Origin: an uncultured Candidatus Binatia bacterium
GTDB lineage: Bacteria; Desulfobacterota; Binatia; Bin18
Direction of reading: 5' to 3'
Assembly: GCA_965207575.1 (NCBI GenBank)
Contig: OZ242288.1
Location: 3,929,879 to 3,993,878, forward strand
DNA: 64,000 nt
The notes under the pieces are model-generated. The model saw nothing but the letters and a program-made list of their open reading frames with translations. It was not told the origin of the DNA and made no database searches. Positions 11,960-30,982 of this stretch are shown piece after piece (positions within the stretch are counted from its first letter, which is position 1; each line of letters begins with the position of its first letter). A program made the position numbers and the translations under genes.

Positions 11960-13195
11960 ATGCCTTTCCAATTACGCTACAGCATAGACGGCGAAGAGAT
12001 TACCGTTGTTGCCATTGGGCTGTTTGTCGCCCCGAACAAGATGCTGCTCGAATTGATGCGCCTCGGCGTGCGCGTCATTCTGGTCGAGCCCATTATGGGG
12101 GCGCACCACGGCCGCGGCCTGCCCGACCGGGATCGTGGCCCCCTGAATCGGGCCGGTGTCAGCATCCCCTGGCAGATGCTGCACCGCGGCATGCAGGCGG
12201 TTGCCATCGACTTTCGCCAGGAGGCGGGTAAACGGCTCGTCCTCGACCTTATTCGAGAAACTCATGTGCTAATCAGCAATTGGCCCCCGCGCATGGCGCC
12301 CTGGCTCGACTACACTCATCTGGTCGAGCACTGCGGCCCGTCCGTCATTAAAATCCAGTTCGACGGCGGGCACGACGGGCGGGCAGCCAACGATTACTCC
12401 ATGCAGGGGGCGACCGGCTTAGCCCACGCCACCGGTGAGCCGCACGGCAGACCGCTCACTATTCCGGTGGCGTTTTTCGATATGCTCACCGGCCTGCACG
12501 GCCTGAACGCCTTCCACGTCGCCCTGCGCCGTCTGGCGGAAACCGGGCGGGGCGACTGCTATCAGATCGCGCTGGAACAGGTCGCCTTCCAAACCCTGGC
12601 GGAGTTGGGCTGGTACGCCCAAGCCGAGACAACGGGCGAGGGCCGGGAACCGATCGGCGACAATCTGTTGGACGCCGTCCATGGTCATTACTGCGCCCGT
12701 GACGGGAAGTTCATCACCCTGAACCTGATTGGCGATTCGGTCCTCCGTCGGCTGCGCGAAGCGACCGGCCTGCGCGACCTCGCTCTCGACGAGCAGGGTC
12801 ACGAGATTCACGGCGACCACGCCCGCTATGAGCGGGTCGATACGATTAAGCAGCAAATTGCCGACTGGATTGCGGCCCGACCGCAGGAAGAAGTGCTCAC
12901 GACCCTGGGCCAGGCCGGGCTGGTGGTCGAGCCGTGTCGGGACAGTATCGAAGCGGAACAGCACGCTCGGGCTCTGCCCTGTTTCCATCACGTTGACGAC
13001 CCTGATCTCGGGTCGATCTGGGTGCCCGGCCCGGTGATCGAAGCCCGCGACCTGGAACCTTCCGACCTGCCCAGCGCCCCCCATCCCGGTGAACACACTC
13101 ACCTTGTCCTCAAGGAAGTTCTGGGACTGGCTTCCGAGGAACTGGCGGACTTGGAAAGCCAAAAAATTATCGCCGGTCCGCCACCGGAGGATTAA
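11960..13195 (+). CDS. CoA-transferase family III (CaiB/BaiF/Frc-like) protein
   Basis: 411 aa; LGVRVILVEP and FFDMLTGLHGLNAFHVAL resemble family III CoA-transferase core with the Asp; GAGGAGG RBS. Confidence 0.7.
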   Translation: MPFQLRYSIDGEEITVVAIGLFVAPNKMLLELMRLGVRVILVEPIMGAHHGRGLPDRDRGPLNRAGVSIPWQMLHRGMQAVAIDFRQEAGKRLVLDLIRETHVLISNWPPRMAPWLDYTHLVEHCGPSVIKIQFDGGHDGRAANDYSMQGATGLAHATGEPHGRPLTIPVAFFDMLTGLHGLNAFHVALRRLAETGRGDCYQIALEQVAFQTLAELGWYAQAETTGEGREPIGDNLLDAVHGHYCARDGKFITLNLIGDSVLRRLREATGLRDLALDEQGHEIHGDHARYERVDTIKQQIADWIAARPQEEVLTTLGQAGLVVEPCRDSIEAEQHARALPCFHHVDDPDLGSIWVPGPVIEARDLEPSDLPSAPHPGEHTHLVLKEVLGLASEELADLESQKIIAGPPPED

Positions 13196-18025: not shown

Positions 18026-19438
18026 GTGAGCACGAACTATTGGACACCCGGCCCACACAGGAGGCCTGAAGTCTCCGCGTCGCCTGACGCAGCAGACAGT
18101 TCGCTCGCAACCACCGCGGACCGCAGCGTTACGGACTTCGACATCGCCATCGTTGGCGGTGGCTTTGCCGGCGCGACAGCGGCACGCGAACTTGGTCAGG
18201 CAGGCTTGCGCGTAGTTCTACTCGAAGCGCGCGATCGACTCGGCGGGCGTACGTACACCGCGGAGTTTGCGGGTCGGCCGGTCGAACTTGGTGGCGCGTG
18301 GGTGCACTGGCTGCAACCGCACGTGTGGGCGGAAATGCGCCGCTACGGTCTTGGTGTGATCGAAGATCCGTTTACCGGCCTCGACGAGACCCGCGTGATG
18401 GGTAACAACGGCGTGACAAGTGTTGTTCCACCGGATCAATTCCTCAGGGACATTCGCGACGGTTTTGAGAAATTCTGCCATGACGTGTGGGAGCTGTTTC
18501 CGCGGCCGTACGAGCCGCTCTATAACCCGAAGGTCTTGGAACTCGACGAACTCTCGTGCGCCGATCGCATCGCGGAACTGGATCTCACCGATACGCAGCG
18601 TATCCAACTCAATTCCTTCATGGCTTTATATGGCGGTGATGTCACCTCAAAATTTGGCCTGCCCGGCATGCTCAAGCTCTACGCCGCCGGTGGCTGGAAT
18701 TACGACGCCTTCGCCGATGCCGAAACCCACTATCGCATAGAATCTGGCACCCTTGGTCTCATCACCTGCCTCATCGAGGATAGCGGCTGCGAGGTTCGCC
18801 TGAACGCAGCCGTTGAACGCATCGAGCACAACACTGGTGCGGTTCGCCTTCATACCCGAGACGGAAACACGGTAAGTGCCAAAGCTGCCGTCATTACTTT
18901 ACCACTCAATTGCTATGCCGACGTTGATTTCGATCCCGTCCTCTCGCTCGCGAAGCAAAACTGGATCAACCAGGGCATGATCTCGAAGGGGGCGAAGTTG
19001 TTCGTGCACTTGCGCGAGAACCTGGGCCGCGTATTTGCGTTCTGCGACGAAGCACGGCCGTTGAACTGGGTGCAAACGTTCGCTTACGGCGATGACGTCG
19101 GCACGATTCTCTCTATCACCGTGGCCCGCGCATCGACCATCGATGTGGACGACGAGGCGCAAATCACCACTGAAGTGCGTCGCCTGTTCGGCGACGTCGA
19201 CGTGATCGACACACGCGGCTACGACTGGGCAGCAGATCCTTTTGCGCGCGGCGCATGGCCCGCGTACAGCGTTGGACAACTCAGCCGCTTGCCGGACCTG
19301 CAGCAGCCTGAAGGCCGTCTCTTCTTCGGGGGCTCACTCACCGCCAACGGCTGGCACGAGTTTATCGACGGCGCGATAGAGAGTGGCCTACGCACCGCGC
19401 GCGAGGTGCAGATATTTCTCGGCGGTGACGGCTCATGA
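18026..19438 (+). CDS. flavin-containing amine oxidase (FAD-dependent, MAO-like)
   Basis: 470 aa; DFDIAIVGGGFAGATAARELGQAGLRVVLLEARDRLGGR dinucleotide-binding motif; GTG start; local composition and RBS usage differ from neighbours. Confidence 0.8.
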   Translation: MSTNYWTPGPHRRPEVSASPDAADSSLATTADRSVTDFDIAIVGGGFAGATAARELGQAGLRVVLLEARDRLGGRTYTAEFAGRPVELGGAWVHWLQPHVWAEMRRYGLGVIEDPFTGLDETRVMGNNGVTSVVPPDQFLRDIRDGFEKFCHDVWELFPRPYEPLYNPKVLELDELSCADRIAELDLTDTQRIQLNSFMALYGGDVTSKFGLPGMLKLYAAGGWNYDAFADAETHYRIESGTLGLITCLIEDSGCEVRLNAAVERIEHNTGAVRLHTRDGNTVSAKAAVITLPLNCYADVDFDPVLSLAKQNWINQGMISKGAKLFVHLRENLGRVFAFCDEARPLNWVQTFAYGDDVGTILSITVARASTIDVDDEAQITTEVRRLFGDVDVIDTRGYDWAADPFARGAWPAYSVGQLSRLPDLQQPEGRLFFGGSLTANGWHEFIDGAIESGLRTAREVQIFLGGDGS

Positions 19439-19938
19439 GCGAGCGCCCGTGCGCGCATGCGACGACCCACAAAAGAATGATGCGGTGCGGCTAATTGCAC
19501 CTTGGGTGCGTTAGGTGTGTCGAAGGGATTTAAAGCAGCGCATATGGCGTCCTCGTTCGCGGGTGGGGTTGATGGGAGACTTCGGCCCGATTGTTAGCGT
19601 ACCGTGTAGTGCAGTGAGGTATCGACGGGAGGGAGGAGCCACTTGGCTCATCATGTCGAGGACAGCAACGCCGACATCGACACTCGCAGTGGTATCGCTA
19701 TACCGACGTGTAGCAATCCGGTCTGCCCCGCGCTTAAAGCCCTGGACGACTCCGGGGCTTATCGCCCCACACAGAGAGGACTACGCGGGACTCTCGCCTT
19801 GATTTTTTGGTGCTGACTCCAAGACAACTCCGAAACCGTAACTTTCCGCGCAAATCCTCCCGCTGGTCCTTTCTCTTGATCTCTGCCTGCTTCAAGGGAT
19901 AGGAGTACTGGTGTCCAAGAAGCAAGGAGGGTCTGAGT

Positions 19939-20814
19939 GTGGACGCATTCGAGTACGCTGCTCCGCAGAATCTACAAGACGCCGTGACGTTGCTGGCCGA
20001 GGCGAGTGGTGAGGCGCGACCCCTGGCGGGCGGAACCGATCTCATTGCCCAAATGAAGGAGAAGCGCCGGAGCCCGGCTCTGGTCGTTGACCTTAAAAAA
20101 ATCCCCGAGCTCAATGTCCTCTCCTACGAGGCCGGGCTCCACATTGGTGCGGCCGTGTCGTGTACGCAGATCGCCGAGTTCGAGCCGGTACGTGTGCACT
20201 ACCCGGCCCTGGCCGAGGCCTGCGCCCTGATCGGCTCGTATCAAATACAGAACCGCGCCGCGCTGGGCGGCAACTTTTGCAACGCTGCCCCCTCTGCAGA
20301 TGCCGTTCCACCGGCTGTATCGTACGGCGCGACGCTGGTGATTGCCGGGCCGGGCGGACAGCGGGAGATTTCGTCAGAAGATTTTTTTGTCGGACCGGGC
20401 CAGACCGTACTGGAAAAAGGTGAGGTCCTGGTCGAGATTGTGATGCCGCCACCGCCACCCCATTCCGGGGCGGCCTATCTACGCTTTATCCCGCGCGAAG
20501 AGATGGACATTGCGGTGGCTGGGGTGGGCTCGTTTGTCCAACTCAGCCCGGACGCTCGCACCTGCGAGCAGGCCCGTATCGTACTCGTCGCGGTTGCGCC
20601 CACTCCCGTCCGGGCAAAAGAGGCCGAGGCGTTTTTAACGGGCAAGGCGCTAGACGACACAACGATTGCCCAGACCGGGGAGCTAGCCTCCCAGGCCGCC
20701 AGTCCGATCTCCGACGTACGCGGCTCGGCGGCCTATCGGATTGAATTGGTAAAAGTGCTGACGCGACGCACGCTGGGCAAGGCGCTGGAGAGAGCCAGGG
20801 GGGAGGCATCATGA
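19939..20814 (+). CDS. molybdenum hydroxylase FAD-binding medium subunit (CoxM/XdhB-like)
   Basis: 291 aa; LAGGTDLIAQMK...AALGGNFCNA motifs; GTG start with AGGAGGG RBS. Confidence 0.8.
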   Translation: MDAFEYAAPQNLQDAVTLLAEASGEARPLAGGTDLIAQMKEKRRSPALVVDLKKIPELNVLSYEAGLHIGAAVSCTQIAEFEPVRVHYPALAEACALIGSYQIQNRAALGGNFCNAAPSADAVPPAVSYGATLVIAGPGGQREISSEDFFVGPGQTVLEKGEVLVEIVMPPPPPHSGAAYLRFIPREEMDIAVAGVGSFVQLSPDARTCEQARIVLVAVAPTPVRAKEAEAFLTGKALDDTTIAQTGELASQAASPISDVRGSAAYRIELVKVLTRRTLGKALERARGEAS

Positions 20815-21287
20815 AGCAGGCGATTGAACTGAACGTCAACGGCGAGCCGCACGCCGCGCTGGTCGATACCCGCGAAACGCTGCTGGACACCCTGCGCTAT
20901 AAGCTGGGCCACATGGGGCCCAAGGAAGGCTGCGGCAATGGCAACTGCGGGGCGTGTACGGTCGTCCTGAACGGCGCCGTCGTCAATGCTTGCCTCGTGT
21001 TCGCCGTAGAAGCCGCAGGTGCGGACGTGACCACGGTCGAAGGGGTTGCGGCTGAGGGCAACCTCCACCCCGTGCAGCAGGCTTTTATTGAACACGGGGC
21101 CTTGCAGTGCGGGTTTTGTACGCCGGGCTTTATCATGTCGGCCAAGGCATTATTGGAACGCAACCCCAACCCGAGCGAACCGGAGATTCGTCTGGCGATT
21201 TCCGGCAACCTGTGCCGCTGCACGGGGTATGACAAAATCGTTCGCGCCATTCAGGCTGCGTCGCAGGCGCTCTCACAAACTGCCTAA
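20811..21287 (+). CDS. molybdenum hydroxylase [2Fe-2S] small subunit (CoxS-like)
   Basis: 158 aa; GCGNGNCGACTV and CGFCTPG...CRCTGY cysteine motifs; ATGA overlap with upstream gene. Confidence 0.85.
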   Translation: MKQAIELNVNGEPHAALVDTRETLLDTLRYKLGHMGPKEGCGNGNCGACTVVLNGAVVNACLVFAVEAAGADVTTVEGVAAEGNLHPVQQAFIEHGALQCGFCTPGFIMSAKALLERNPNPSEPEIRLAISGNLCRCTGYDKIVRAIQAASQALSQTA

Positions 21288-21298
21288 GGAGGGACAGC

Positions 21299-23599
21299 AT
21301 GGCTGAGTATAGTGTGATTGGAACGTCTTTGGCCAAGGTTGATGCCCCGGAACGGGTCACGGGCAAGGCGACCTATGGGGCCGACCTCGATCTGCCCGGC
21401 ATGCTGTGGGCGAAACTCGTTCGTAGCCCGTATGCCCACGCTCGTATCAAGCGTATTGATACCAGCCGGGCCAAAGCGCTGCCCGGCGTGAAAGCCGTCA
21501 TTACCGCGAACGATCTGCCCTCCCTGCCAAAAGGCGCCACCGCTCCCCTGGTGGGAGAAGTCAGCATCGACATGAGCGCCATCCGTGAGATCGTCATGGC
21601 CTCGGATAAAGTGCGCTACCACGGTCAGGTCGTGGCCGCCGTGGCCGCCACCGACCCGTTTATTGCCGAGGAAGCGGCCGGACTGGTTGACGTTGACTAC
21701 GAACCCCTGCCGGTCGTGGAAGACGTCCTCCGGGCCATGCAGCCGGACGCCCCGCTCGTTCACGAAGACCTGCACACGCTCGAAGAGGCGACCCAGGAAA
21801 AGTCCGACCAGCCGAGTAATATTTCCACCCATATGGTCTATACCAGGGGCGATGTTGAGGCCGGGTTCGCCGCGGCCGACGCGGTTATTGAGAAAACGTA
21901 TACGACCCAGATGGTCCACCAGGGCTATCTGGAACCCCAGGCCTGCGCCGCGCGGGTCGAGCCCAACGGCCGGGTCACCTTGTGGACCTCGGCCCAGGGG
22001 CATTTCACCGTCCGGACCCAACTCGTGACCCTGCTCGGCCTCCCCGCCAGTCAACTCAAGGTCGTCCCCATGGAGATCGGAGGCGGATTTGGCGGCAAAG
22101 CCCTGGCGCTGTTTGAGCCCACCGCCATTGTGCTGGCCCAAAAGACCAGCCGGCCGGTCAAACTCGTGGTCTCCCGGGAAGAGGTGCTGCGCGCAACCGG
22201 CCCCGGGGCGCCCGCGGTCATCACCGTGAAAGCCGGCGCCACAAAGGACGGGAAGATTACCGCGCTGACGACAGCCATGCGCTACGATGCCGGCGCCTTT
22301 CCCGGCTCGCCGGTCGCCCGCGGCCTGCTGGTGGGTTTAGCCCCGTATAAGCTGGACAATATGGTCGCCGAAGGGTTTGACGTGCTAACCAACAAGCCCC
22401 GTGTTCAAGCCTACCGCGCCCCTGGCGGCACGCCGGCGGCCTTTGCGGTTGAAGCGCTGATGGATGCCCTGGCGGATGAGATTGGCGTCGACCCGCTGGC
22501 GTTTCGGCAGAAAAACGCCGCCGAAGAAGGCGATACTTTGCCCCTGGGCATGCCGCTCAACCGCATCGGCCTGACCGAGATGCTGAAACAGATTGAGGCG
22601 CATCCGTGCTGGACTACGCCGCTGGAGGGTCCCCACCGCGGCCGAGGACTGGCCCTGGGTTACTGGATCGGTGGCTCCTTCACCTCAAGCGCCGAGGTCA
22701 AGATCAACCCGGACGCCACCGCCTCCATCTTTGTGGGGACCGTGGACCTGACCGGCACCCGGACCACGATTTCCCAGATGGTGGCCGATGAACTCCAGCT
22801 TGATCCCCAAGACATCACCATCACAGTGGGTGATACCGACAGCGCTCCCTTTGCCGACCTGAGCGGCGGCAGCCGGATTACCTACACGATGAGTGCCGCA
22901 GCTCATCAGGCCAGTCAGGACGTGTTGACCCAACTCAAGGAGCGGGCCGCGGAAAAGCTCAAGGTGCCCGTCGCTGAGGTCGAGTATCAGGCCAAACGGT
23001 TCTGGGCCAAGGGTGATACCCGGAACGAAGTCAGCCTGGCCGAGCTGGCCCGCGAGAGTGTGGCCTGGGGCAGCGGGCCGATCATCGGCAAGGGCAGCAC
23101 CACCCGGATGCAGCCGGCCCACGCCTATGCCGCCCATGTCGCGGATGTCGAGATTGATCCGGAAACGGGCAAAGTGACCATCCTGCGCTATACCTGCTTC
23201 CAGGATGTTGGCAAGGCCATCAATCCGACCCAGGTTGAAGGTCAGATCCAGGGAGGGGCCGTGCAGGGCATCGGCTGGGCCCTGAATGAGGAGTATATCT
23301 TTGATAACGGCGAGCTGAAAAACGCCAGCCTGCTGGACTATCGCTGTCCGGTGGCGCTGGACCTGCCCATGATCGAAACCGTCCTGACCGAAGTCCCGGC
23401 CTCCGAAGGTCCCTACGGTCTGCGCGGCGTCGGCGAGGTGCCCATCGTGCCACCGGGCGCAGCCCTGGCTAATGCGATCTACCGCGCCACCGGTACCCGG
23501 CTGTACGAGTTGCCCATGAATCCCGAGCGGATTTTCTGGGCCACGCGCGGCAATGGAGCCAACGGGGCCAACGGGGCCAACGGGTCAGGCGGAGCGTAG
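21299..23599 (+). CDS. molybdenum hydroxylase molybdopterin-binding large subunit (xanthine dehydrogenase/aldehyde oxidase family, CoxL-like)
   Basis: 766 aa; AAGGAGGG RBS; active-site loop reads QAYRAPGG (neither form I AYXCSFR nor form II AYRGAGR); unusual C-terminal NGANGANGANGSGGA tail. Confidence 0.85.
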   Translation: MAEYSVIGTSLAKVDAPERVTGKATYGADLDLPGMLWAKLVRSPYAHARIKRIDTSRAKALPGVKAVITANDLPSLPKGATAPLVGEVSIDMSAIREIVMASDKVRYHGQVVAAVAATDPFIAEEAAGLVDVDYEPLPVVEDVLRAMQPDAPLVHEDLHTLEEATQEKSDQPSNISTHMVYTRGDVEAGFAAADAVIEKTYTTQMVHQGYLEPQACAARVEPNGRVTLWTSAQGHFTVRTQLVTLLGLPASQLKVVPMEIGGGFGGKALALFEPTAIVLAQKTSRPVKLVVSREEVLRATGPGAPAVITVKAGATKDGKITALTTAMRYDAGAFPGSPVARGLLVGLAPYKLDNMVAEGFDVLTNKPRVQAYRAPGGTPAAFAVEALMDALADEIGVDPLAFRQKNAAEEGDTLPLGMPLNRIGLTEMLKQIEAHPCWTTPLEGPHRGRGLALGYWIGGSFTSSAEVKINPDATASIFVGTVDLTGTRTTISQMVADELQLDPQDITITVGDTDSAPFADLSGGSRITYTMSAAAHQASQDVLTQLKERAAEKLKVPVAEVEYQAKRFWAKGDTRNEVSLAELARESVAWGSGPIIGKGSTTRMQPAHAYAAHVADVEIDPETGKVTILRYTCFQDVGKAINPTQVEGQIQGGAVQGIGWALNEEYIFDNGELKNASLLDYRCPVALDLPMIETVLTEVPASEGPYGLRGVGEVPIVPPGAALANAIYRATGTRLYELPMNPERIFWATRGNGANGANGANGSGGA
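23419..23599 (+). repeat. direct repeat copy A (3' end of the coxL-like gene), duplicated at 24274..24453
   Basis: ~180 bp, ~90% identical to 24274..24453 including the GCCAACGGG triplet repeat. Confidence 0.75.
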
Positions 23600-23635
23600 C
23601 CGGGCGCGAGGTTTTTTTGGAATTGTCAATTTTGG

Positions 23636-23986
23636 CTACTCGTCGGTAGGGGCGGCGGTTTCCCGAGCCAGTTTCTGGGCCACCAAGGCGTTCATACTAA
23701 TACCGGCTCGCCCGGCCTCCATCGCGAGCCGTCGATGCAGGCGTTTATCAATTCGGACGTTAAATTGGCCGCTATACGTTTTCCGGGCAGGAGCGACCGG
23801 CACGGGCTCGTCATGCGCCCGGTAGCTTTCCTTGGCCGCCTCCCAAGCCGTAGCCAACTCCGCCACTGCTTTGACCGGCGTATCGGCAAAGGCCGAAATG
23901 CCAGGCATTTCTACCAGATGCGCCAACCAATCGCCGTCTTCATCCTGGAAGAGATTGACCGAGAAGCCGTCAAAATCATCCTTCAT
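23636..23986 (-). CDS. hicB: HicB-family antitoxin (RNase-H-like N-terminus plus RHH C-terminus)
   Basis: MKDDFDGFSVNLFQDEDGDWLAHLVEMPGISAFADT...SGQFNVRIDKRLHRRLAMEAGRAGISMNALVAQKL; overlaps the hicA end. Confidence 0.65.
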   Translation of the reverse strand: MKDDFDGFSVNLFQDEDGDWLAHLVEMPGISAFADTPVKAVAELATAWEAAKESYRAHDEPVPVAPARKTYSGQFNVRIDKRLHRRLAMEAGRAGISMNALVAQKLARETAAPTDE

Positions 23987-24233
23987 CGCTACGTTCCTCC
24001 TCATAGTACTTTAAAAATTGCTCGACTTGATAACCTTTGGCTCGCTTGCCCTTAGCCTGTACTGACAAGCGCCTCCCTTGGGGCGAATACCAGATGCGGT
24101 GCGAGCCTCGTTGTCGGTCAAAGGTCCAGCCGCACTGTCTAAGCAAGGTTTCAAATTCGTCGAAGCGCAACCCACGGGCATTGCGGATTGCTTTGTCTAG
24201 CAGCTTGGGTTGCTTAGCCATTCTTGTAACCAT
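23976..24233 (-). CDS. hicA: HicA-family toxin (mRNA interferase)
   Basis: 85 aa; ...LRQCGWTFDRQRGSHRIWYSPQGRRLSV typical HicA GSH motif. Confidence 0.65.
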   Translation of the reverse strand: MVTRMAKQPKLLDKAIRNARGLRFDEFETLLRQCGWTFDRQRGSHRIWYSPQGRRLSVQAKGKRAKGYQVEQFLKYYEEERSDEG

Positions 24234-24273
24234 ATACAGTTACGAAGAACGCTGTCCATGGGCTATCCTATAA

Positions 24274-24453
24274 TCTGCGTGGCGTCGGCGAGGTGCCCAT
24301 CGTGCCGCCGGGCGCGGCCCTGGCCAATGCGATCTACCGCGCCACCGGCACTCGGCTGTACGAACTGCCCATGAATCCCGAGCGGATTTTCTGGGCCACG
24401 CGCGGCAATGGAGCCAACGGGTCAAACGGGGCCAACGGATCAGGTGAGGTGTA
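24274..24453 (+). repeat. direct repeat copy B: displaced duplicate of the coxL 3' end (ends in its own stop)
   Basis: would encode ...LRGVGEVPIVPPGAALANAIYRATGTRLYELPMNPERIFWATRGNGANGSNGANGSGEV*; no upstream gene body. Confidence 0.75.
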
Positions 24454-24509
24454 GAAGGCCGCAGGGTTTCTTTAGGAAGGACGGTCCGAGGGGGATCGTC
24501 CTTCCGGTC

Positions 24510-25856
24510 CTACTCTGCTCCGTTCGTCTCCCCGGTAAAGACGATATAGCCGGCTTCCTCCTGGTCCTGAATTCTCTCTTCCAGGTAGGCCGGCAGGACA
24601 AGGTCGCGCTCCTTGGGAAACTTGCCGCGATGGAGTTGGGGCCGGAGGAAAAACTCCTCCGGCAAACTGATACCGGCTTGTGTCTTGAGCGGTGCCGGGA
24701 ACCAGGTGCGGCGCATAAAGTCCGGATTAAAGAACACGTCCTTATCCTCTTGCGACCAGTCCCGGAGTTGCATGGCGTCGTGGATGCCGTATGAGTAAAA
24801 GTCCTGCTGCGGGTCCCACCACAGGGTAATCAGGTTATGATAGCCGCGCTCCTTGAGGCGCGGGTTCATCAGCTTGGCTACGCGCTCCTCTATCATAATG
24901 GGCTCGCCATTCCTGCCGTAGATTTCGGTCCGCAACGGATAGAAATAGTGCTGGTCCGCCCAGAACAGAATCCGGGGTGCGTAGTAATCGGGCAGCCAGT
25001 CTTGCTTGGCGGCGGCCTCGACCAGATAGCATTTGACTCCGTTATCCTCGGTGTAAAACGGATAGTCGTCCCCCATCAGTTTGATGGCGCTGGCCGGGAC
25101 ATCCTGAAAAGTCCCGTCCTCGGTCTGGAGCGTGATCGACTGGCGCGTCTTTGGGAAACGCGCGGTTTTGTAGAGCACATCGGTGCCGAGAATACGCCAG
25201 GAGAACTCCCAGGCGTCGCGGCCCAAAAAATCGTCATAGGCCATGGGGGCGTTTGGAAATTTTTCCTGCCGCCGCGGCTGGGGAAAACGGCGCACCCGGC
25301 GCATGCTCAGAGAATACCCAAACAGGTCCGCTTTTTTGGTCAGGTGTTGATCGGTCCGGAACGTACTGAAGAGCATCTGGTTGCCATAGTTTTCCGGGGG
25401 AGCGACATCCTGGGTGAGCCAGCGCGAGTAGACTTCCCCTGGCTTGGCCAGAATCTGGCCCATCAGCCCTTCCGGATCGCGATAGTGTACCAAGGCAATA
25501 ATCTGTTGGACGAAGAGATAACCGGTCGGGGTGAGCGTTCCCGTATCTTCAATCTGAACACAGTTCCAGCGGGGCATATGCGGGAACTCCATGATCCGAT
25601 AGCCGACCTCTTCGGGCGTGTAGGGCGGCTCGAAGGGATAGGCTTCCGCCGGCATATACGGGATGTCTGCGTGGCGGGGCGTGGTGGTTGAAAAATCGAA
25701 GCGGGCGAGTTCTTCTTCGGAAAGTTCATCTATTGTCCGCCAGGTCCGGCTCTCGTTGTCCTCGGCCGAGACCGGTGTCCCCCCCAGCCAGCAAGCCAAG
25801 ACGAGTATTCCCCAGAGCCAGCGCATGAAGCTCACAGCAGCCTGTCCTCTCGACAT
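24510..25856 (-). CDS. secreted aromatic-rich protein of unknown function (possibly DUF1329-like)
   Basis: 448 aa; GGGAGG RBS; N-terminal signal peptide MRWLWGILVLACWLGGTPVSA-ED; Trp/Tyr/Phe-rich; no catalytic motif recognised. Confidence 0.45.
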   Translation of the reverse strand: MSRGQAAVSFMRWLWGILVLACWLGGTPVSAEDNESRTWRTIDELSEEELARFDFSTTTPRHADIPYMPAEAYPFEPPYTPEEVGYRIMEFPHMPRWNCVQIEDTGTLTPTGYLFVQQIIALVHYRDPEGLMGQILAKPGEVYSRWLTQDVAPPENYGNQMLFSTFRTDQHLTKKADLFGYSLSMRRVRRFPQPRRQEKFPNAPMAYDDFLGRDAWEFSWRILGTDVLYKTARFPKTRQSITLQTEDGTFQDVPASAIKLMGDDYPFYTEDNGVKCYLVEAAAKQDWLPDYYAPRILFWADQHYFYPLRTEIYGRNGEPIMIEERVAKLMNPRLKERGYHNLITLWWDPQQDFYSYGIHDAMQLRDWSQEDKDVFFNPDFMRRTWFPAPLKTQAGISLPEEFFLRPQLHRGKFPKERDLVLPAYLEERIQDQEEAGYIVFTGETNGAE

Positions 25857-27425: not shown

Positions 27426-29281
27426 GCGCGACCAACACAATGCACGGCTGGACCGGGACTGTCCTGCGCGTCAATCTGACCACCGGCACTATCACCAAGG
27501 AGCCGCTGAACGCCGAATGGGCCAGAGACTATGTCGGCGGCCGCGGGCTCGGCGTCAAATATCTCTACGAAGAGATGGACCCCAGCGTCGATCCGCTCAG
27601 TCCGGAAAATAAGATGATCTTTGCCACCGGACCGCTGACCGGCACCAACGCATCCTGTGGCTCGCGCTATATGGTCGTTACCAAGGGCGCGCTGACCAAC
27701 GCCATTACCACCTCGAATTCCGGCGGCTTCTGGGGGCCGGAGATGAAATTCGCCGGCTACGACATGATCATCCTGGAGGGCAAGGCCGCCCGGCCGTCCT
27801 ACCTGTGGATCTATGACGACCGGGTGGAACTGCGCGATGCGACCCATCTGTGGGGCAAGACGGTCTGGCAGACCGAAGAGGCCCTGCGCGCCGAAATCGG
27901 CGTGCCGGACAGCATCATCGCCAGTATCGGCCCGGCCGGAGAAAACCTGGTGCGCTTTGCCTGCATCATGAACGACCTGCACCGGGCCGCGGGCCGGTCC
28001 GGCGTAGGGGCGGTGATGGGCTCCAAAAATCTCAAGGCCATTGCTCTGCGCGGCACCGGCGGCGTCTCTCTGGCCGACCCACAGGCATATATGGAAGGCC
28101 AATGGGCAATGAAGGAAAAGCTGCGGCAGTCGCCCGTGACCGCCGAGGGCCTGCCCATGTACGGCACCGAAGTGCTGGTCAACGTGATCAACGAGCACGG
28201 CGCCCTGCCGACGCGCAACCACCAGCAGACTGTCTTTGATGAAGCCGAAAACATCAGCGGCGAAACCCTGACCGAAACCCGCCTGGTCGCCAATAAAGCC
28301 TGTTTTTCCTGCACCATCGCCTGTGGGCGGGTCAGCACCCTGCCGGGCGAAGCTTCCTCGAAATACTCGGTCACCACCAATCCGCAGAACTGGAAAATCG
28401 CCGGGGAAGGCCCCGAATACGAAGCGGCCTGGGCCATGGGCTCGGAGTGCGGCGTGGGCGACCTGGACGCGCTGATCAAGGCTAACTGGCTGTGCAACGA
28501 CCTGGGTATGGATTCCATCAGCTTTGGGGCCAGCGTGGCCGCGGCCATGGAGTTGTTCGAGAAGGGCGCGGTCGGCCAGGACCAGACCGAGATTCCGTTG
28601 GAGTTCGGTAGTGCCGAAGCCCTCATCGCCATGGCCGAGAAGACCGCCTACCGGCAGGGCTTTGGTGATGCCGTGGCCGAAGGCTCCAAACGCATGACCG
28701 AAAATTTCGGTCGTCCAGAGTTCTTCATGGGCGTTCGCGGTCAGGAGTTTGCCGCATATGAAGCTCGTGCCATTCAGGGCATGGGCCTGGGCTATGCGAC
28801 CTCCAACCGCGGGGCGTGTCACTTGAAAGCCTATACGGTGGCGGCCGAAATTCTGGGCCTGCCGCGTCAGATGGACCCGCGCGCCACAGAAGAGAAGGCA
28901 GAGATTACCAAAATCTTCCAGGACGCGACCTCGACCGTTGACGCCACCGGCCTGTGTCAATTCCTCACCTTTGGGGTTGGTCTTGAAGAAATGCTGCCCC
29001 AACTGTCGGCCGCCACAGGCGTAACGTATACGCAGGAAGAACTGGTCCACATTGGGGAGCGTATCTGGAACCTGGAGCGGCTGTGGAACGAACGGGCGGG
29101 CTTCACCGGCAAGGACGACACCCTGCCCAAACGGATTCTGGAAGAGCCCATCCCATCCGGCCCGGCCAAAGGCGAGGTCAACCGTCTGGGGGAAATGCTG
29201 CCCGAGTACTACGAGCTGCGAGGCTGGGAGAAGGACGGCAAAATCTCCGAGGCAAAGAAGAAAGAGTTGGGGCTGGAGTAA
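27422..29281 (+). CDS. aorB: tungsten-type aldehyde:ferredoxin oxidoreductase, catalytic subunit (AOR family)
   Basis: ~620 aa; N-terminal GWTGTVLRVNLTTGTI...YVGGRGLGVKYLYEE... and ...ASIGPAGENLVRFACIMND...RAAGRSGVGAVMGSKNLKAI are AOR family hallmarks. Confidence 0.85.
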   Translation: MSATNTMHGWTGTVLRVNLTTGTITKEPLNAEWARDYVGGRGLGVKYLYEEMDPSVDPLSPENKMIFATGPLTGTNASCGSRYMVVTKGALTNAITTSNSGGFWGPEMKFAGYDMIILEGKAARPSYLWIYDDRVELRDATHLWGKTVWQTEEALRAEIGVPDSIIASIGPAGENLVRFACIMNDLHRAAGRSGVGAVMGSKNLKAIALRGTGGVSLADPQAYMEGQWAMKEKLRQSPVTAEGLPMYGTEVLVNVINEHGALPTRNHQQTVFDEAENISGETLTETRLVANKACFSCTIACGRVSTLPGEASSKYSVTTNPQNWKIAGEGPEYEAAWAMGSECGVGDLDALIKANWLCNDLGMDSISFGASVAAAMELFEKGAVGQDQTEIPLEFGSAEALIAMAEKTAYRQGFGDAVAEGSKRMTENFGRPEFFMGVRGQEFAAYEARAIQGMGLGYATSNRGACHLKAYTVAAEILGLPRQMDPRATEEKAEITKIFQDATSTVDATGLCQFLTFGVGLEEMLPQLSAATGVTYTQEELVHIGERIWNLERLWNERAGFTGKDDTLPKRILEEPIPSGPAKGEVNRLGEMLPEYYELRGWEKDGKISEAKKKELGLE

Positions 29282-29286
29282 AGGAG

Positions 29287-29422
29287 GTCTATTGAGTCAT
29301 TGGGTCTATTGAGTCATTGGGTCTATTGAGTCATTGGGTCTATTGAGTCATTGGGTCTATTGAGTCATTGGGTCTGTTGAGTCATTGGGTCTGTTGAGTC
29401 ATTGGGTCTGTTGAGTCGATTG
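29287..29422. repeat. tandem array A: 17-bp unit GTCT(A/G)TTGAGTCATTGG x ~7.5 (palindromic TGAGTCA core)
   Basis: read directly; five units with A then three with G at position 5; last unit degenerate; 17-nt period excludes coding. Confidence 0.9.
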
Positions 29423-29440
29423 AGTCTTTGAGACCCAAAG

Positions 29441-29530
29441 GACCCTAAAGACCCAAGAGACCCTAAAGACCCAAGAGACCCTAAAGACCCAAGAGACCCT
29501 AAAGACCCAAGAGACCCTAAAGACCCAAGA
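29441..29530. repeat. tandem array B: 18-bp unit AGACCCTAAAGACCCAAG x 5, approximately the reverse complement of array A
   Basis: read directly; AGACCC recurs every 9 bp on the top strand and is the complement of the GGGTCT recurring in array A. Confidence 0.9.
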
Positions 29531-29551
29531 GACCTACAAGGAACACACGTC

Positions 29552-30982
29552 ATGGCACACCACATCATTATTGGAGGGGGACCGGCCGGGGTGGCCGCAG
29601 CGGAAACGATCCGGGCGACAGCAGGCTCCGAAGCGCAGATCACGCTCATCTCCAATGAGCCCGCCTACTCGCGCATGGTCCTGCCCTACTATCTGGCGAA
29701 CGATATTCCGGAGCGGCATGTGCTGACCGGAGACGCGGCCTATTTCGAACAACACGGCATTACGTCCGTGTCGGGCCAGGTCGAAAAAGTCGATGCCCAG
29801 GCGCGCACGGTTACACTCGGTGACGGCTCAAGCCACACGTTTGATACCCTGCTCATCGCGACCGGCTCTTCGGCCCAACGTCCTCCTATTGCCGGCATTG
29901 ACCAGGAAGGCGTGTACACCTTCTGGACGCTCGAAGACGCAAAACAGGTCATGGCGAAAGCGCAGGGAACGCCCAGGGCGGTGCTCATTGGGGCCGGCTT
30001 TATTGGCTTCATCGTCTTGAACGCCATGGCCAAGCTGGACTGGAATCTCTCGGTGGTTGAAACCGAGGCACAGGTCTTGCCGCGCATGCTCGACGCCACT
30101 GGCGCGCAAGCGGTCGAAGGCTGGCTGACCAGCCAGAATGTAGCCGTTCATACCGGCGCGCAGGTCCAAAGCATTAGCCGTGAAGGTGAGGCACTCAACC
30201 TGTCGCTGAGCAATGGAGCAAACCTAAGCGCGGATATTGTCATTTTGGCTACGGGTATTCAGCCCAACCTGGGCTTTCTCAACGGCTCCGGTATCCACGT
30301 TGACGACGGCATCGTGGTTGACGACCGCATGCAGACCAATATTCCCGGCATCTATGCGGCCGGTGATGTTGCCGCCGGCCCGGACCTGCTGAATGGCTCG
30401 CCCGCGGTGCATGCGATTCAGCCAACGGCCGTGGACCACGGTCGGATTGCCGGCGCCAACATGGCCGGCCAGGAGACACACTATCCGGGCAGCCTGCTGC
30501 TCAACGTGTTGGATGTCATCAATCTGCACTGCGCCAGCTTTGGCCAGTGGCGGACAGATGCGAAGGAGTCGATCACCACCGTCTGGAACCCAACGCGCCC
30601 GATTTATCGTAAATACGTCTGGGACGGCGACCGCATGGTCGGGGCGCTGTTTGTCGGACCGATAGATGACGTCACCATGCTGAACGACGTCGGTATGGTC
30701 AAAGGACTCATTCAGACACAACAGGCCCTGGGAAACTGGGCAGACTACGTCAAAGAGAACCCGACCGATGTGCGCCGCGCCTATGTCGCTACCGGGACCG
30801 CGCAGAAACTGGTCAGTCATACCCTCTTGGGCGCACCCGCTACAGCGCGCGCCTACCGGGTAGACGGGAAGACACCCTCGGCCTGGCAAAAAGGCTCGCA
30901 CGGCCCGCTTATCGGCTCTCGCCCGGACGCGCTGGATACGCTTCCACGGACACCGACACCAGGCATTGAAAAGGGTGAATAA
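29552..30982 (+). CDS. aorC: FAD-dependent pyridine-nucleotide-disulfide oxidoreductase (AorC-like NAD(P)-linked subunit)
   Basis: 476 aa; HHIIIGGGPAGVAAAE and LIGAGFIGF dinucleotide folds; IYAAGDVA motif. Confidence 0.75.
   Translation: MAHHIIIGGGPAGVAAAETIRATAGSEAQITLISNEPAYSRMVLPYYLANDIPERHVLTGDAAYFEQHGITSVSGQVEKVDAQARTVTLGDGSSHTFDTLLIATGSSAQRPPIAGIDQEGVYTFWTLEDAKQVMAKAQGTPRAVLIGAGFIGFIVLNAMAKLDWNLSVVETEAQVLPRMLDATGAQAVEGWLTSQNVAVHTGAQVQSISREGEALNLSLSNGANLSADIVILATGIQPNLGFLNGSGIHVDDGIVVDDRMQTNIPGIYAAGDVAAGPDLLNGSPAVHAIQPTAVDHGRIAGANMAGQETHYPGSLLLNVLDVINLHCASFGQWRTDAKESITTVWNPTRPIYRKYVWDGDRMVGALFVGPIDDVTMLNDVGMVKGLIQTQQALGNWADYVKENPTDVRRAYVATGTAQKLVSHTLLGAPATARAYRVDGKTPSAWQKGSHGPLIGSRPDALDTLPRTPTPGIEKGE

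What the first reader, a model, noticed from the sequence alone, without database searches (positions are those of the whole stretch)
23419..24453. hicAB toxin-antitoxin cassette inserted at the 3' end of the coxL-like gene, flanked by a ~180-bp diverged direct duplication of that 3' end
The last ~180 bp of the Mo-hydroxylase large-subunit gene (23419..23599) are repeated at 24274..24453 with ~90% identity. The downstream copy ends in its own stop and even retains a variant of the GCCAACGGG triplet repeat, encoding NGANGSNGANGSGEV instead of NGANGANGANGSGGA. Between the copies lies a ~675-bp low-GC segment encoding only HicA and HicB on the opposite strand. This looks like an integration that regenerated the target gene's 3' end, as tRNA or gene-3'-end-targeting integrative elements do. 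It could also be a recombination footprint of a miniature element that lacks its own integrase. The ~10% divergence between the copies argues the two copies have different origins, with one brought in by the element.
Basis: seen in the sequence. Interest (0 to 1): 0.75.

Follow-up and report, generated by a model that had tools for sequence, protein, structure and literature searches.

The report
Displaced gene tail beside hicAB cassette
A small toxin-antitoxin gene pair arrived in this Binatia genome together with a foreign copy of the neighbouring enzyme gene's last 180 bases, pushing the original gene tail downstream as a silent relic; this is a recombination footprint at a toxin-antitoxin insertion hotspot, not the work of a self-integrating element.

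Summary
Bases 23419-23599, the last 59 codons plus stop of a xanthine-dehydrogenase-family large-subunit gene, recur at 24274-24454 (165/180 identical), flanking an intact hicA-hicB pair on the minus strand. In the 46-codon conserved core all 8 differences are synonymous, so the copies diverged inside working genes. About 40 related Candidatus Binatia loci settle the polarity. At least ten genomes have an empty site (gene stop, ~50 nt with a 13-bp hairpin, then the convergent LolA-like gene). Copy B plus its downstream hairpin matches that native arrangement. Copy A's post-stop spacer matches genomes where hicAB follows the gene directly. So copy A came in with hicAB and copy B is the displaced native tail. 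The same junction occurs in an independent 3.6-Mb contig (L049). A separate event in L005 (PIN toxin cargo, ~93-nt duplication, 10/10 synonymous differences) has a different junction. No insert encodes a recombinase, has terminal repeats or shows a fixed crossover point. hicAB relatives at eight other loci lack flanking duplications. Best reading: recombination anchored in gene homology with an illegitimate far junction (homology-facilitated illegitimate recombination, or a single crossover with a circle), as in Rhs/T6SS "C-terminal displacement". The site is a toxin-antitoxin accretion-and-decay hotspot. Interest is moderate to low.

The parts
21299..23599 (+). Xanthine-dehydrogenase-family molybdenum hydroxylase large subunit (the 'coxL-like' gene), 766 aa, intact. 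It follows the small Fe-S subunit (20811-21287) and the FAD subunit (19939-20814).
   Evidence: Pfam Ald_Xan_dh_C, MoCoBD_1 and MoCoBD_2. 28 orthologous Binatia loci at 80-99% aa identity.
23419..23599 (+). Copy A: the current 3' end of the gene (59 codons plus TAG). Inferred to have been imported together with hicAB. Includes a perfect 3x GCCAACGGG repeat at 23558-23584.
   Evidence: Repeat. Its post-stop spacer matches the hicAB-bearing genomes L002, L045 and L049, not the empty sites. The SGGA* tail is shared with copy A of L049.
23600..23635 (.). 36-nt spacer between the gene stop and the convergent hicB stop (..GAGGTTTTTTTGGAA|TTGTCAATTTTGG). Its first ~24 nt are a diverged version of the native post-stop sequence. 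It ends at the same GGAA|TTG point where the unrelated hicAB-2 cassette begins in L005 and L049.
23636..23986 (-). hicB antitoxin (116 aa from the ATG at 23986; the longest ORF starts at 24004).
   Evidence: Pfam HicB PF05534, E=3e-14. 665 homologues, most 113-116 aa, the closest 95% identical.
23976..24221 (-). hicA toxin (81 aa from the ATG at 24221; an alternative ATG lies at 24233). Overlaps the hicB start by 11 nt.
   Evidence: Pfam HicA_toxin PF07927, E=2e-11. The 81-aa form is called in L002, L050 and L052.
24222..24274 (-). hicAB upstream region: a promoter-like site (-35 TGGACA 24258-24253, -10 TATGGT 24234-24229) and a GTAAC-N8-GTTAC palindrome (24226-24243; possible operator, inferred). 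The inserted segment ends at ..CCTATAAT (24274).
   Evidence: Conserved in L002 and L049. Homology to hicAB at unrelated loci ends near 24250.
24274..24454 (+). Copy B: the displaced native 3' end of the gene (59 codons plus TAG). A promoterless, startless relic.
   Evidence: Contiguous with the native post-stop sequence and hairpin, exactly as in the empty sites L007, L003 and L001. The SGEV* tail is shared with copy B of L049, which shows non-synonymous decay.
24455..24509 (.). Native intergenic spacer with a 13-bp GC-rich hairpin (24475-24505) between the convergent genes. Putative bidirectional terminator, but it lacks a U-run.
   Evidence: RNA fold -31.1 kcal/mol, z=-2.9. Present at the empty sites, one copy per locus, not a dispersed repeat.
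24510..25856 (-). Convergent downstream gene, LolA_like/DUF1329 family, 448 aa. This is the right-hand conserved flank of the hotspot.
   Evidence: Pfam. Conserved at 89-96% nt identity in related loci.

Best explanation
This is a '3'-end displacement' footprint. DNA from a related Binatia lineage, in which hicAB already lay directly downstream of the orthologous gene (an L002-like allele), recombined into a chromosome with an unoccupied or differently occupied site. The left join was ordinary homologous recombination somewhere inside the gene. The right join was illegitimate: it linked the end of the hicAB promoter region (..CCTATAAT) to codon 708 of the resident gene instead of to the intergenic spacer. 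The incoming 855 nt (donor gene tail, 36-nt spacer, hicB, hicA, promoter) therefore supplies the gene's working 3' end (copy A). The resident tail (copy B) with its hairpin was pushed 855 nt downstream as a silent relic. The enzymology is either homology-facilitated illegitimate recombination of a linear fragment or a RecA-dependent single crossover with a small circle carrying 'gene fragment + cassette'. The two leave the same footprint. What is shown: the insertion polarity, the foreign origin of one copy, the recurrence of such events, and the absence of element-encoded machinery. What is inferred: the donor type, the recombination pathway, and that hicAB is a functional RNase-toxin/antitoxin addiction module whose selfish retention helps such inserts persist.
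For: (1) Empty sites: L001, L003, L004, L006, L007, L009, L010, L011, L017 and L027 have 47-55 nt between the convergent stops. (2) Copy B plus 24455-24509 is collinear with those empty sites (L007..GGTGAGGCGTAG|AAGGCCGCAGGATTTCTTTAGGAAGGACGG..), whereas copy A's spacer matches the hicAB-bearing L002, L045 and L049. (3) All 8 core differences between A and B are synonymous. The probability is 4e-5 to 1e-4 if all changes fell on a neutral copy, and below 0.01 even if only half did. (4) The same architecture with the identical ..CATAAT|C junction occurs in an independent long-read contig, L049, about 7% diverged. Tail signatures show A-A and B-B orthology, and L049's copy B carries non-synonymous changes. 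This rules out an assembly artefact and shows copy B is the non-functional one. (5) An independent second event in L005: the gene with a new, truncated tail, then an antitoxin and a PIN toxin, then a ~93-nt duplicate of the gene tail with 10/10 synonymous differences, then the native post-stop sequence. Its junction lies at a different codon. (6) No recombinase, terminal inverted repeats or RNA/att-like structure in any insert. The largest insert is 1.5 kb of toxin-antitoxin genes only. (7) hicAB relatives at 87-90% aa identity at 8 unrelated loci share only the ORFs plus ~30 nt upstream and have no flanking duplications. (8) The window's gene is a mosaic of population alleles, which shows frequent homologous exchange in this group. 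(9) Published precedent for this pattern and both mechanisms: PMC5361080, PMC2935791, PMC2884548, PMC3240628.
Against: The left crossover could not be located. The polymorphic sites in the repeat are shared across the population, so neither copy is phylogenetically closer to a particular lineage. No sampled genome is a near-identical donor: L002's hicAB is only 93% identical. The junction has at most 1 nt of microhomology (T), which is less than the 3-10 nt that, from my own knowledge, is typical of experimental HFIR joints. Two unrelated cassettes start at the same GGAA|TTG point at the foot of the hairpin. That could hint at some site preference, although replacement of one cassette by another within inherited boundaries explains it too. 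Outside the first four codons, the differences between the window's and L049's B copies are also all third-position (4/4). That is unexpected for a long-neutral relic and needs the extra assumption that copy B has itself been refreshed by recombination with functional alleles. Competence, conjugation and end-joining capacity in Binatia were not examined.
Confidence: 0.8

Rival explanations
1. Site-specific integration. A miniature integrative element (CIME-like, mobilised in trans by a recombinase encoded elsewhere) carries an attP that includes the gene's last 180 nt. It integrates by a crossover at the left edge of the repeat (TCTGCG) and regenerates the gene tail, as tRNA- and gene-3'-end-targeting islands do.
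For: Diverged direct repeats flank a lower-GC insert, with one repeat restoring the reading frame. The differences are spread over the whole repeat, which fits a crossover at one extreme edge. Two unrelated cassettes share a left boundary at the hairpin foot. The genome outside the 64-kb window could not be searched for a recombinase.
Against: No recombinase in any of about 12 occupied alleles, and no integrase-bearing relative at this site in 28 or more genomes. The second event (L005) has its junction 64 nt away. There are no inverted repeats or conserved core at the junctions. The same hicAB family at other loci has no repeats and no conserved ends. A 180-nt att duplication is far longer than usual (my own knowledge). 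No viral contig carries the cassette or the gene fragment.
Confidence: 0.07
2. In-place origin. A local tandem duplication or template-switch of the gene's own 3' end occurred in this lineage, hicAB inserted between the copies, and the redundant copy then diverged.
For: Tandem direct repeats are the commonest outcome of replication slippage. The hairpin could stall replication forks.
Against: 8/8 (window) and 10/10 (L005) differences are synonymous, whereas about 28-30% would be expected for a neutral copy. The two copies carry different post-stop sequences that match two different population alleles. No genome shows the duplication without a cassette.
Confidence: 0.03
3. Copy B is the last remnant of a second, paralogous Mo-hydroxylase operon that once lay downstream and was almost wholly deleted, with hicAB occupying the deletion scar.
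For: Bacterial genomes often carry several paralogues of this enzyme family, and the two copies are 8% diverged.
Against: The left edge of copy B is sharp and abuts the hicA promoter. Copy B and its flank are collinear with the single-copy orthologous tail in at least 10 genomes. No relative has a second operon here. The only other hit is a 48%-identical Caulobacteraceae homologue.
Confidence: 0.02
4. Assembly artefact: two co-assembled strain haplotypes, one with hicAB and one without, were concatenated.
For: The relatives are metagenome-assembled genomes, and strain mixtures with 5-10% divergence are evidently present.
Against: The identical junction is present in an independent sample and assembly (L049, a 3.6-Mb long-read contig at 21x), and an analogous structure sits on a complete chromosome (L005, OX638322.1). 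There is no sequence overlap at the junction that an assembler could have used.
Confidence: 0.01

Closest known systems
C-terminal (3'-end) displacement at Rhs, CDI and T6SS effector-immunity loci (Jackson et al. 2009, PMC2935791; Kirchberger et al. 2017, PMC5361080)
   Same: Incoming DNA is anchored by homology to the conserved upstream part of a gene and brings a new 3' end plus a small linked module. The old 3' end is shunted downstream as a silent fragment together with a variable length of repeated 'core' sequence. Successive events build arrays. No integrase is involved. Circular single-crossover and HFIR mechanisms have both been proposed.
   Different: Here the host gene is a metabolic enzyme, not a polymorphic toxin. 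The new tail encodes the same protein sequence (synonymous differences only in the core), so the displacement brings no functional novelty to the gene. The cargo is a type II toxin-antitoxin pair on the opposite strand, not an immunity gene. Only one relic per event is seen, not long arrays.
Homology-facilitated illegitimate recombination (de Vries & Wackernagel 2002; Prudhomme et al. 2002; Meier & Wackernagel 2003, cited in PMC5361080; shown in E. coli conjugation, PMC3240628; invoked for small variable segments, PMC2884548)
   Same: One homologous anchor, one illegitimate joint, and capture of a short foreign segment next to a conserved gene. It explains recombinase-free insertion and variable junctions.
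   Different: The process was not observed here, only its inferred product. Microhomology at the joint is at most 1 nt. From my own knowledge, experimental HFIR usually deletes recipient DNA, whereas here the illegitimate joint lies upstream of the recipient's gene end and so leaves a duplication.
hicAB type II toxin-antitoxin cassettes (Pfam PF07927 and PF05534), originally named for their position in hypervariable junctions of pilus gene clusters
   Same: Two small overlapping genes, toxin first, with their own promoter. They are scattered among unrelated loci in different genomes. One database source still names a relative 'encoded in hypervariable junctions of pilus gene clusters'.
   Different: Nothing unusual about the genes themselves. 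The notable feature is the footprint left by their arrival, not the cassette.
Integrative elements that target gene or tRNA 3' ends and their integrase-less derivatives (CIMEs)
   Same: The insert is bounded by direct repeats, one of which reconstitutes the target gene's 3' end.
   Different: There is no integrase, no related integrase-bearing element at the site, no fixed crossover point and no conserved element ends. The repeat is 180 nt and 8% diverged.

Membership tests
HicAB type II toxin-antitoxin system | A HicA-family toxin domain and a HicB-family antitoxin domain above Pfam's curated thresholds | tested here: met
   HicA_toxin 44.3 bits (cut-off 27) and HicB 53.1 bits (cut-off 21).
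HicAB type II toxin-antitoxin system | Bicistronic toxin-then-antitoxin arrangement with full-length genes and its own promoter | tested here: met
   hicA (81 aa) overlaps hicB (116 aa) by 11 nt. Lengths equal those of homologues. A promoter-like site lies at 24258-24229 on the minus strand (a consensus match only).
HicAB type II toxin-antitoxin system | Toxin RNase activity neutralised by the antitoxin | not testable with these tools
   Needs expression and neutralisation assays.
3'-end / C-terminal displacement (Rhs/T6SS-type footprint) | An intact gene followed downstream by a startless fragment repeating its 3' region | tested here: met
   Copy B, 24274-24454, with a sharp left edge and no start or promoter context.
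3'-end / C-terminal displacement (Rhs/T6SS-type footprint) | The attached and displaced ends have different evolutionary origins (not an in-place duplication) | tested here: met
   Synonymous-only divergence. The two copies carry distinct post-stop alleles that match different population haplotypes.
3'-end / C-terminal displacement (Rhs/T6SS-type footprint) | Recurrent independent events at the same gene, with repeated core fragments of variable length | tested here: met
   Window and L049: 180 nt with hicAB. L005: ~93-117 nt with an antitoxin and a PIN toxin.
3'-end / C-terminal displacement (Rhs/T6SS-type footprint) | The new end confers a different C-terminal function (toxin domain exchange) | tested here: not met
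   Copies A and B encode identical residues over 46 codons and differ only in the low-complexity tail. So this works like displacement but does not belong to the polymorphic-toxin systems.
Homology-facilitated illegitimate recombination product | One flank joined through extended homology, the other at a non-homologous or microhomologous joint | tested here: inconclusive
   The right joint is non-homologous (1 nt shared). The left crossover could not be mapped because the population is mosaic. A circular single crossover gives the same product.
Site-specific integrative element / CIME | A cognate integrase in the element, or a related integrase-bearing element using the same att sites | tested here: not met
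   No recombinase in any occupied allele among about 40 loci. The rest of the genome could not be searched.
Site-specific integrative element / CIME | The same crossover position in independent integrations | tested here: not met
   The junction is at codon -59 in the window and L049, and at about codon -38 in L005.
IS / MITE-type transposable element | Terminal inverted repeats and a short target-site duplication | tested here: not met
   No terminal inverted repeats. The duplication is 180 nt and diverged.
Integron gene cassette | An attC-like imperfect palindrome at the cassette end, with an integron integrase and attI nearby | tested here: not met
   No structured element in 23000-25000 (Rfam; repeats). 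The flanks are conserved housekeeping-type genes in all relatives.

The most novel reading that the evidence does not exclude
Integrase-less toxin-antitoxin cassettes in Binatia may circulate as small pieces of DNA, linear or circular, that carry a fragment of a conserved host gene's 3' end as a built-in 'homing arm'. Host RecA would then insert them repeatedly at that gene while always regenerating it. That would be a population-level pool of 'TA tips', analogous to the proposed episomal Rhs tips. The displaced relic (copy B) would in turn serve as a new homology arm for the next exchange. This would be a general, recombinase-free route for toxin-antitoxin mobility, with the hairpin between convergent genes acting as the preferred breakpoint.
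Probability: 0.12. Interest if true: 0.65.

Novelty: new member of a known kind. Interest (0 to 1): 0.33.

Why it matters
How chromosomal toxin-antitoxin pairs move without any mobility genes is rarely caught in the act. This locus offers a natural series: an empty site, a clean insertion, an insertion with a displaced gene tail (twice, with different cargo), stacked cassettes, toxin-deleted orphans and scars. The series shows that host recombination anchored in a conserved neighbouring gene is enough. It also gives a practical diagnostic. A short diverged repeat of a gene's 3' end whose differences are purely synonymous marks imported DNA, not a local duplication or an attachment site, so annotators should not call such islets integrative elements. 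It does not reveal a new kind of system.

Tried and rejected
- **Exact-sequence look-ups** of the window's large-subunit and HicB proteins found nothing on record.
- **Assigning copy A or B to a lineage** by identity or by the 8 informative sites failed. The variants are shared polymorphisms, with 3-6 matches to either copy in every genome.
- **Locating the left crossover** with a sliding-window identity scan gave only a suggestive switch from L001-like to L002/L007-like near 22,750-22,800. The scan mostly showed pervasive mosaicism.
- **The metagenome scan with HicB** returned only relatives at 75% identity or less on short contigs, none at this gene.
- **Viral contigs** hold no relative of the cassette and no copy of the gene fragment.
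- **The census of relics** using the 53-aa relic peptide returned only 5 short proteins. The two inspected (L062, L063) look like the tail ORF of a gene split in two on a small contig, probably by a frameshift, but their DNA was not examined.
- **The 36-nt spacing** between the hicB stop and the neighbouring gene's stop recurs at a dCTP-deaminase locus (L052), but the sequences are unrelated, so it is a coincidence.
- **The native hairpin** is not a dispersed REP-like repeat.
- **Rfam** found nothing in 23000-25000.
- **Terminator scan:** neither the hairpin nor the T-run after copy A scored as a canonical intrinsic terminator.


Full report
**1. The observation**

The repeat is real and is not a chance match.
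- The repeat finder reports a 207-nt direct repeat, 23412-23618 / 24267-24473, 88% identical and 855 nt apart. It is the only long dispersed direct repeat in the window.
- In the reading frame of the upstream gene, 23420-23599 and 24275-24454 are 165/180 identical. Both end in TAG, and the tails read NGANGANGANGSGGA* and NGANGSNGANGSGEV*.
- The left edge is sharp at T23419/T24274. On the right, similarity fades about 20 nt past the stop.
- The upstream gene (21299-23599) has the three domains of a molybdenum hydroxylase large subunit and follows genes for Fe-S and FAD subunits. Its active-site loop is QAYRAPGG. From my own knowledge this is neither CO-dehydrogenase signature, so 'xanthine-dehydrogenase-family' is a safer label than coxL.
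- Between the copies lie only hicB (23636-23986) and hicA (23976-24221) on the minus strand, with a promoter-like site at 24258-24229.
- The 674-nt non-repeat insert has 54.7% GC against 60.2% for the window, the 5th percentile.

**2. The substitution pattern**

In the 46 conserved codons, copies A and B differ at 8 sites and all 8 are synonymous. A random substitution in this sequence is synonymous with probability of about 0.28-0.31. The chance of 8/8 is therefore 4e-5 to 1e-4, and it stays below 0.01 even if only half of the changes fell on a neutral copy. The two copies diverged while each was part of a working gene. This excludes a local duplication followed by decay.

**3. The empty-site test**

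A scan of species-representative genomes with the large-subunit protein gave 28 orthologous loci in Candidatus Binatia MAGs.
- **Empty sites.** Ten loci (L001, L003, L004, L006, L007, L009, L010, L011, L017, L027) have only 47-55 nt between the gene's stop and the stop of a convergent LolA_like/DUF1329 gene. That spacer contains a GC-rich hairpin. In the window it has a 13-bp stem at 24475-24505, folds at -31 kcal/mol with z = -2.9, and is not repeated elsewhere.
- **Copy B is native.** Copy B together with 24455-24509 is collinear with this empty-site arrangement and nearly identical to L007.
- **Copy A is linked to hicAB.** The 36 nt after copy A (..GAGGTTTTTTTGGAATTGTCAATTTTGG) match the genomes in which hicAB follows the gene: L002, L045-48 and L049.
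- **Conclusion.** Copy B is the displaced native tail. Copy A arrived with hicAB.

**4. Not an artefact and not unique**

- **L049.** This locus lies on a 3.6-Mb long-read contig from another sample, found through a 90%-identical HicB. It matches window 23000-24478 continuously at about 93% identity and has the same ..CATAAT|C junction. The A copies share the SGGA* tail and the B copies share SGEV*. L049's copy B has non-synonymous changes (LRGV to PRRA, G to R), as expected of a relic. In L049 copy B is followed by a second, unrelated hicAB pair instead of the hairpin.
- **L005.** This locus, on a complete chromosome, records an independent event. The gene carries a new, slightly truncated tail, followed by a 78-aa antitoxin candidate and a PIN-domain toxin. 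Then comes a duplicate of the gene's tail: 117 nt in all, of which ~93 nt also remain in the upstream copy. The native post-stop sequence follows it. The two L005 copies differ at 10 sites, all synonymous, and the junction lies 64 nt further into the gene than in the window.

**5. The site is a toxin-antitoxin hotspot with visible decay**

The module map gives these states:

| State | Loci |
|---|---|
| Empty site | L001, L007 and eight others |
| Clean hicAB-1 insertion, no duplication | L002 |
| hicAB-1 with displaced tail | window |
| hicAB-1 + relic + hicAB-2 | L049 |
| PIN module + relic + hicAB-2 | L005 |
| hicB-1 intact, hicA-1 fused by deletion to an hicA-2 remnant | L045-48 |
| Orphan hicB-2 after precise loss of hicA-2, with scraps of hicB-1 | L008, L028 |
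| 125-nt scar of hicAB-2 | L024 |
| RelB/Phd-like, MazE-like and fragmented PIN genes (more distant lineage) | L013, L015 |

- In these decayed alleles the toxin gene is the one lost or truncated, while the antitoxin survives.
- hicAB-1 and hicAB-2 both begin after the same ..GGAA|TTG point at the foot of the hairpin. L002's right end matches the right end of the hicAB-2 alleles. I therefore infer that hicAB-1 replaced hicAB-2 within inherited boundaries. A breakage preference at the hairpin is not excluded.

**6. Mechanism**

- Nothing in any insert encodes a recombinase, and the largest insert is 1.5 kb of toxin-antitoxin genes.
- There are no terminal inverted repeats and no structured RNA or att-like element.
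- The two independent events have different junctions.
- Relatives of this hicAB at 87-90% protein identity sit at unrelated loci, beside genes for dCTP deaminase, an amidohydrolase or an acetyltransferase. They share only the ORFs and about 30 nt upstream with the window and have no flanking duplications at eight loci tested. The duplication therefore belongs to events at this gene, not to the cassette.
- The window's gene is itself a mosaic of population alleles, so homologous exchange is frequent in this group.

The simplest account runs as follows. A fragment from an L002-like donor was anchored by homology inside the gene. Its far end was joined illegitimately, with 1 nt of shared sequence, to codon 708 of the resident gene. 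A single crossover with an 855-nt circle would give the same product.

Both routes have been proposed for the analogous 'C-terminal displacement' at Rhs loci (circular intermediates; PMC2935791) and at T6SS effector-immunity loci (HFIR; PMC5361080). HFIR has also been invoked for small variable segments in general (PMC2884548) and shown in E. coli conjugation (PMC3240628).

**7. What remains open**

- The left crossover and the true donor were not identified.
- Outside the first four codons, the B copies of the window and L049 differ only at third positions (4/4). I read this as refreshment of the relic by recombination with functional alleles. The different sequences downstream of copy B in the two genomes require such an exchange anyway. 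The numbers are small, and selection on copy B cannot be excluded.
- No vector was found in viral contigs.

**8. Comparison and verdict**

- The genes are ordinary HicAB family members.
- The architecture works like Rhs/T6SS 3'-end displacement but is not a polymorphic-toxin system. The new tail encodes the same protein, and the cargo is a toxin-antitoxin pair.
- It fails the defining tests for a site-specific integrative element or CIME, for an IS/MITE and for an integron cassette.
The inference of 'different origins, one brought in' is right, with copy A the import. The integrative-element analogy is not supported.
- This is a clear, well-documented example of a known kind of recombination footprint at a toxin-antitoxin hotspot: useful, but not surprising to a specialist.

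Noticed in passing
window 29269-29561: Two adjacent tandem arrays in the stretch just upstream of ORF 29552-30982 (+). The first has a 17-nt unit (GGTCTATTGAGTCATTG) repeated about 9 times. The second has a 9/18-nt unit (AGACCCAAGAGACCCTAA) repeated about 6-12 times.
   Followed up: no
window 18300-19800 (amine-oxidase gene 18026-19438 and the spacer before the FAD-subunit gene): A second variable segment. This region aligns at 90-100% identity with L001, L002, L003 and L009, but only partly or not at all with many other otherwise collinear Binatia loci. The gene content upstream of the operon therefore also differs between genomes.
   Followed up: no
window 23558-23584 and the equivalent tails in L001-L028: The C-terminal tail of the enzyme is a low-complexity NG(A/T)NGS repeat that varies in length and sequence between genomes; it is 6-7 aa shorter in L004, L005 and L028. 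Only the window's copy A has three perfect GCCAACGGG units, which suggests recent slippage or homogenisation.
   Followed up: partly
L008 12302-12858; L028 12284-13148; L045 3697-4000; L024 12302-12426: Toxin-first decay of the cassettes. hicA-2 is precisely deleted, leaving orphan hicB-2 (L008, L028). hicA-1 is truncated and fused to an hicA-2 remnant while hicB-1 stays intact (L045-48). L024 retains only a 125-nt scar of hicAB-2.
   Followed up: partly
L028 about 12330-12400; L012 about 12404-12449: A short palindromic element (..GGGTTAGCCGTAGGCGTAACCC..) replaces the 3' part of hicB-1 in L028. It has an 85%-identical inverted 48-nt match in the L012 insert, so it may be a small dispersed repeat.
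   Followed up: no
L007, L014, L015 (record titles): Loci 90-98% identical in protein to the Binatia gene are labelled 'Thermodesulfobacteriota bacterium' (L007) and 'uncultured Enterobacteriaceae bacterium' (L014, L015) in their public records. These are probably taxonomic mislabels of Binatia MAGs.
   Followed up: no
window 58172-58217 and 59021-59066: A 46-nt direct repeat, 76% identical, inside ORF 58155-60221. It is probably an internal duplication of a ..DIGGTFTD..-type motif within one protein.
   Followed up: no
window 24293-24454 (+); L049 3533-3694: The relic copy B is an open 53-codon frame from a GTG, and a gene caller annotated the equivalent as a 53-aa gene in L049. Such relics are likely to be mis-annotated as small hypothetical proteins.
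   Followed up: partly
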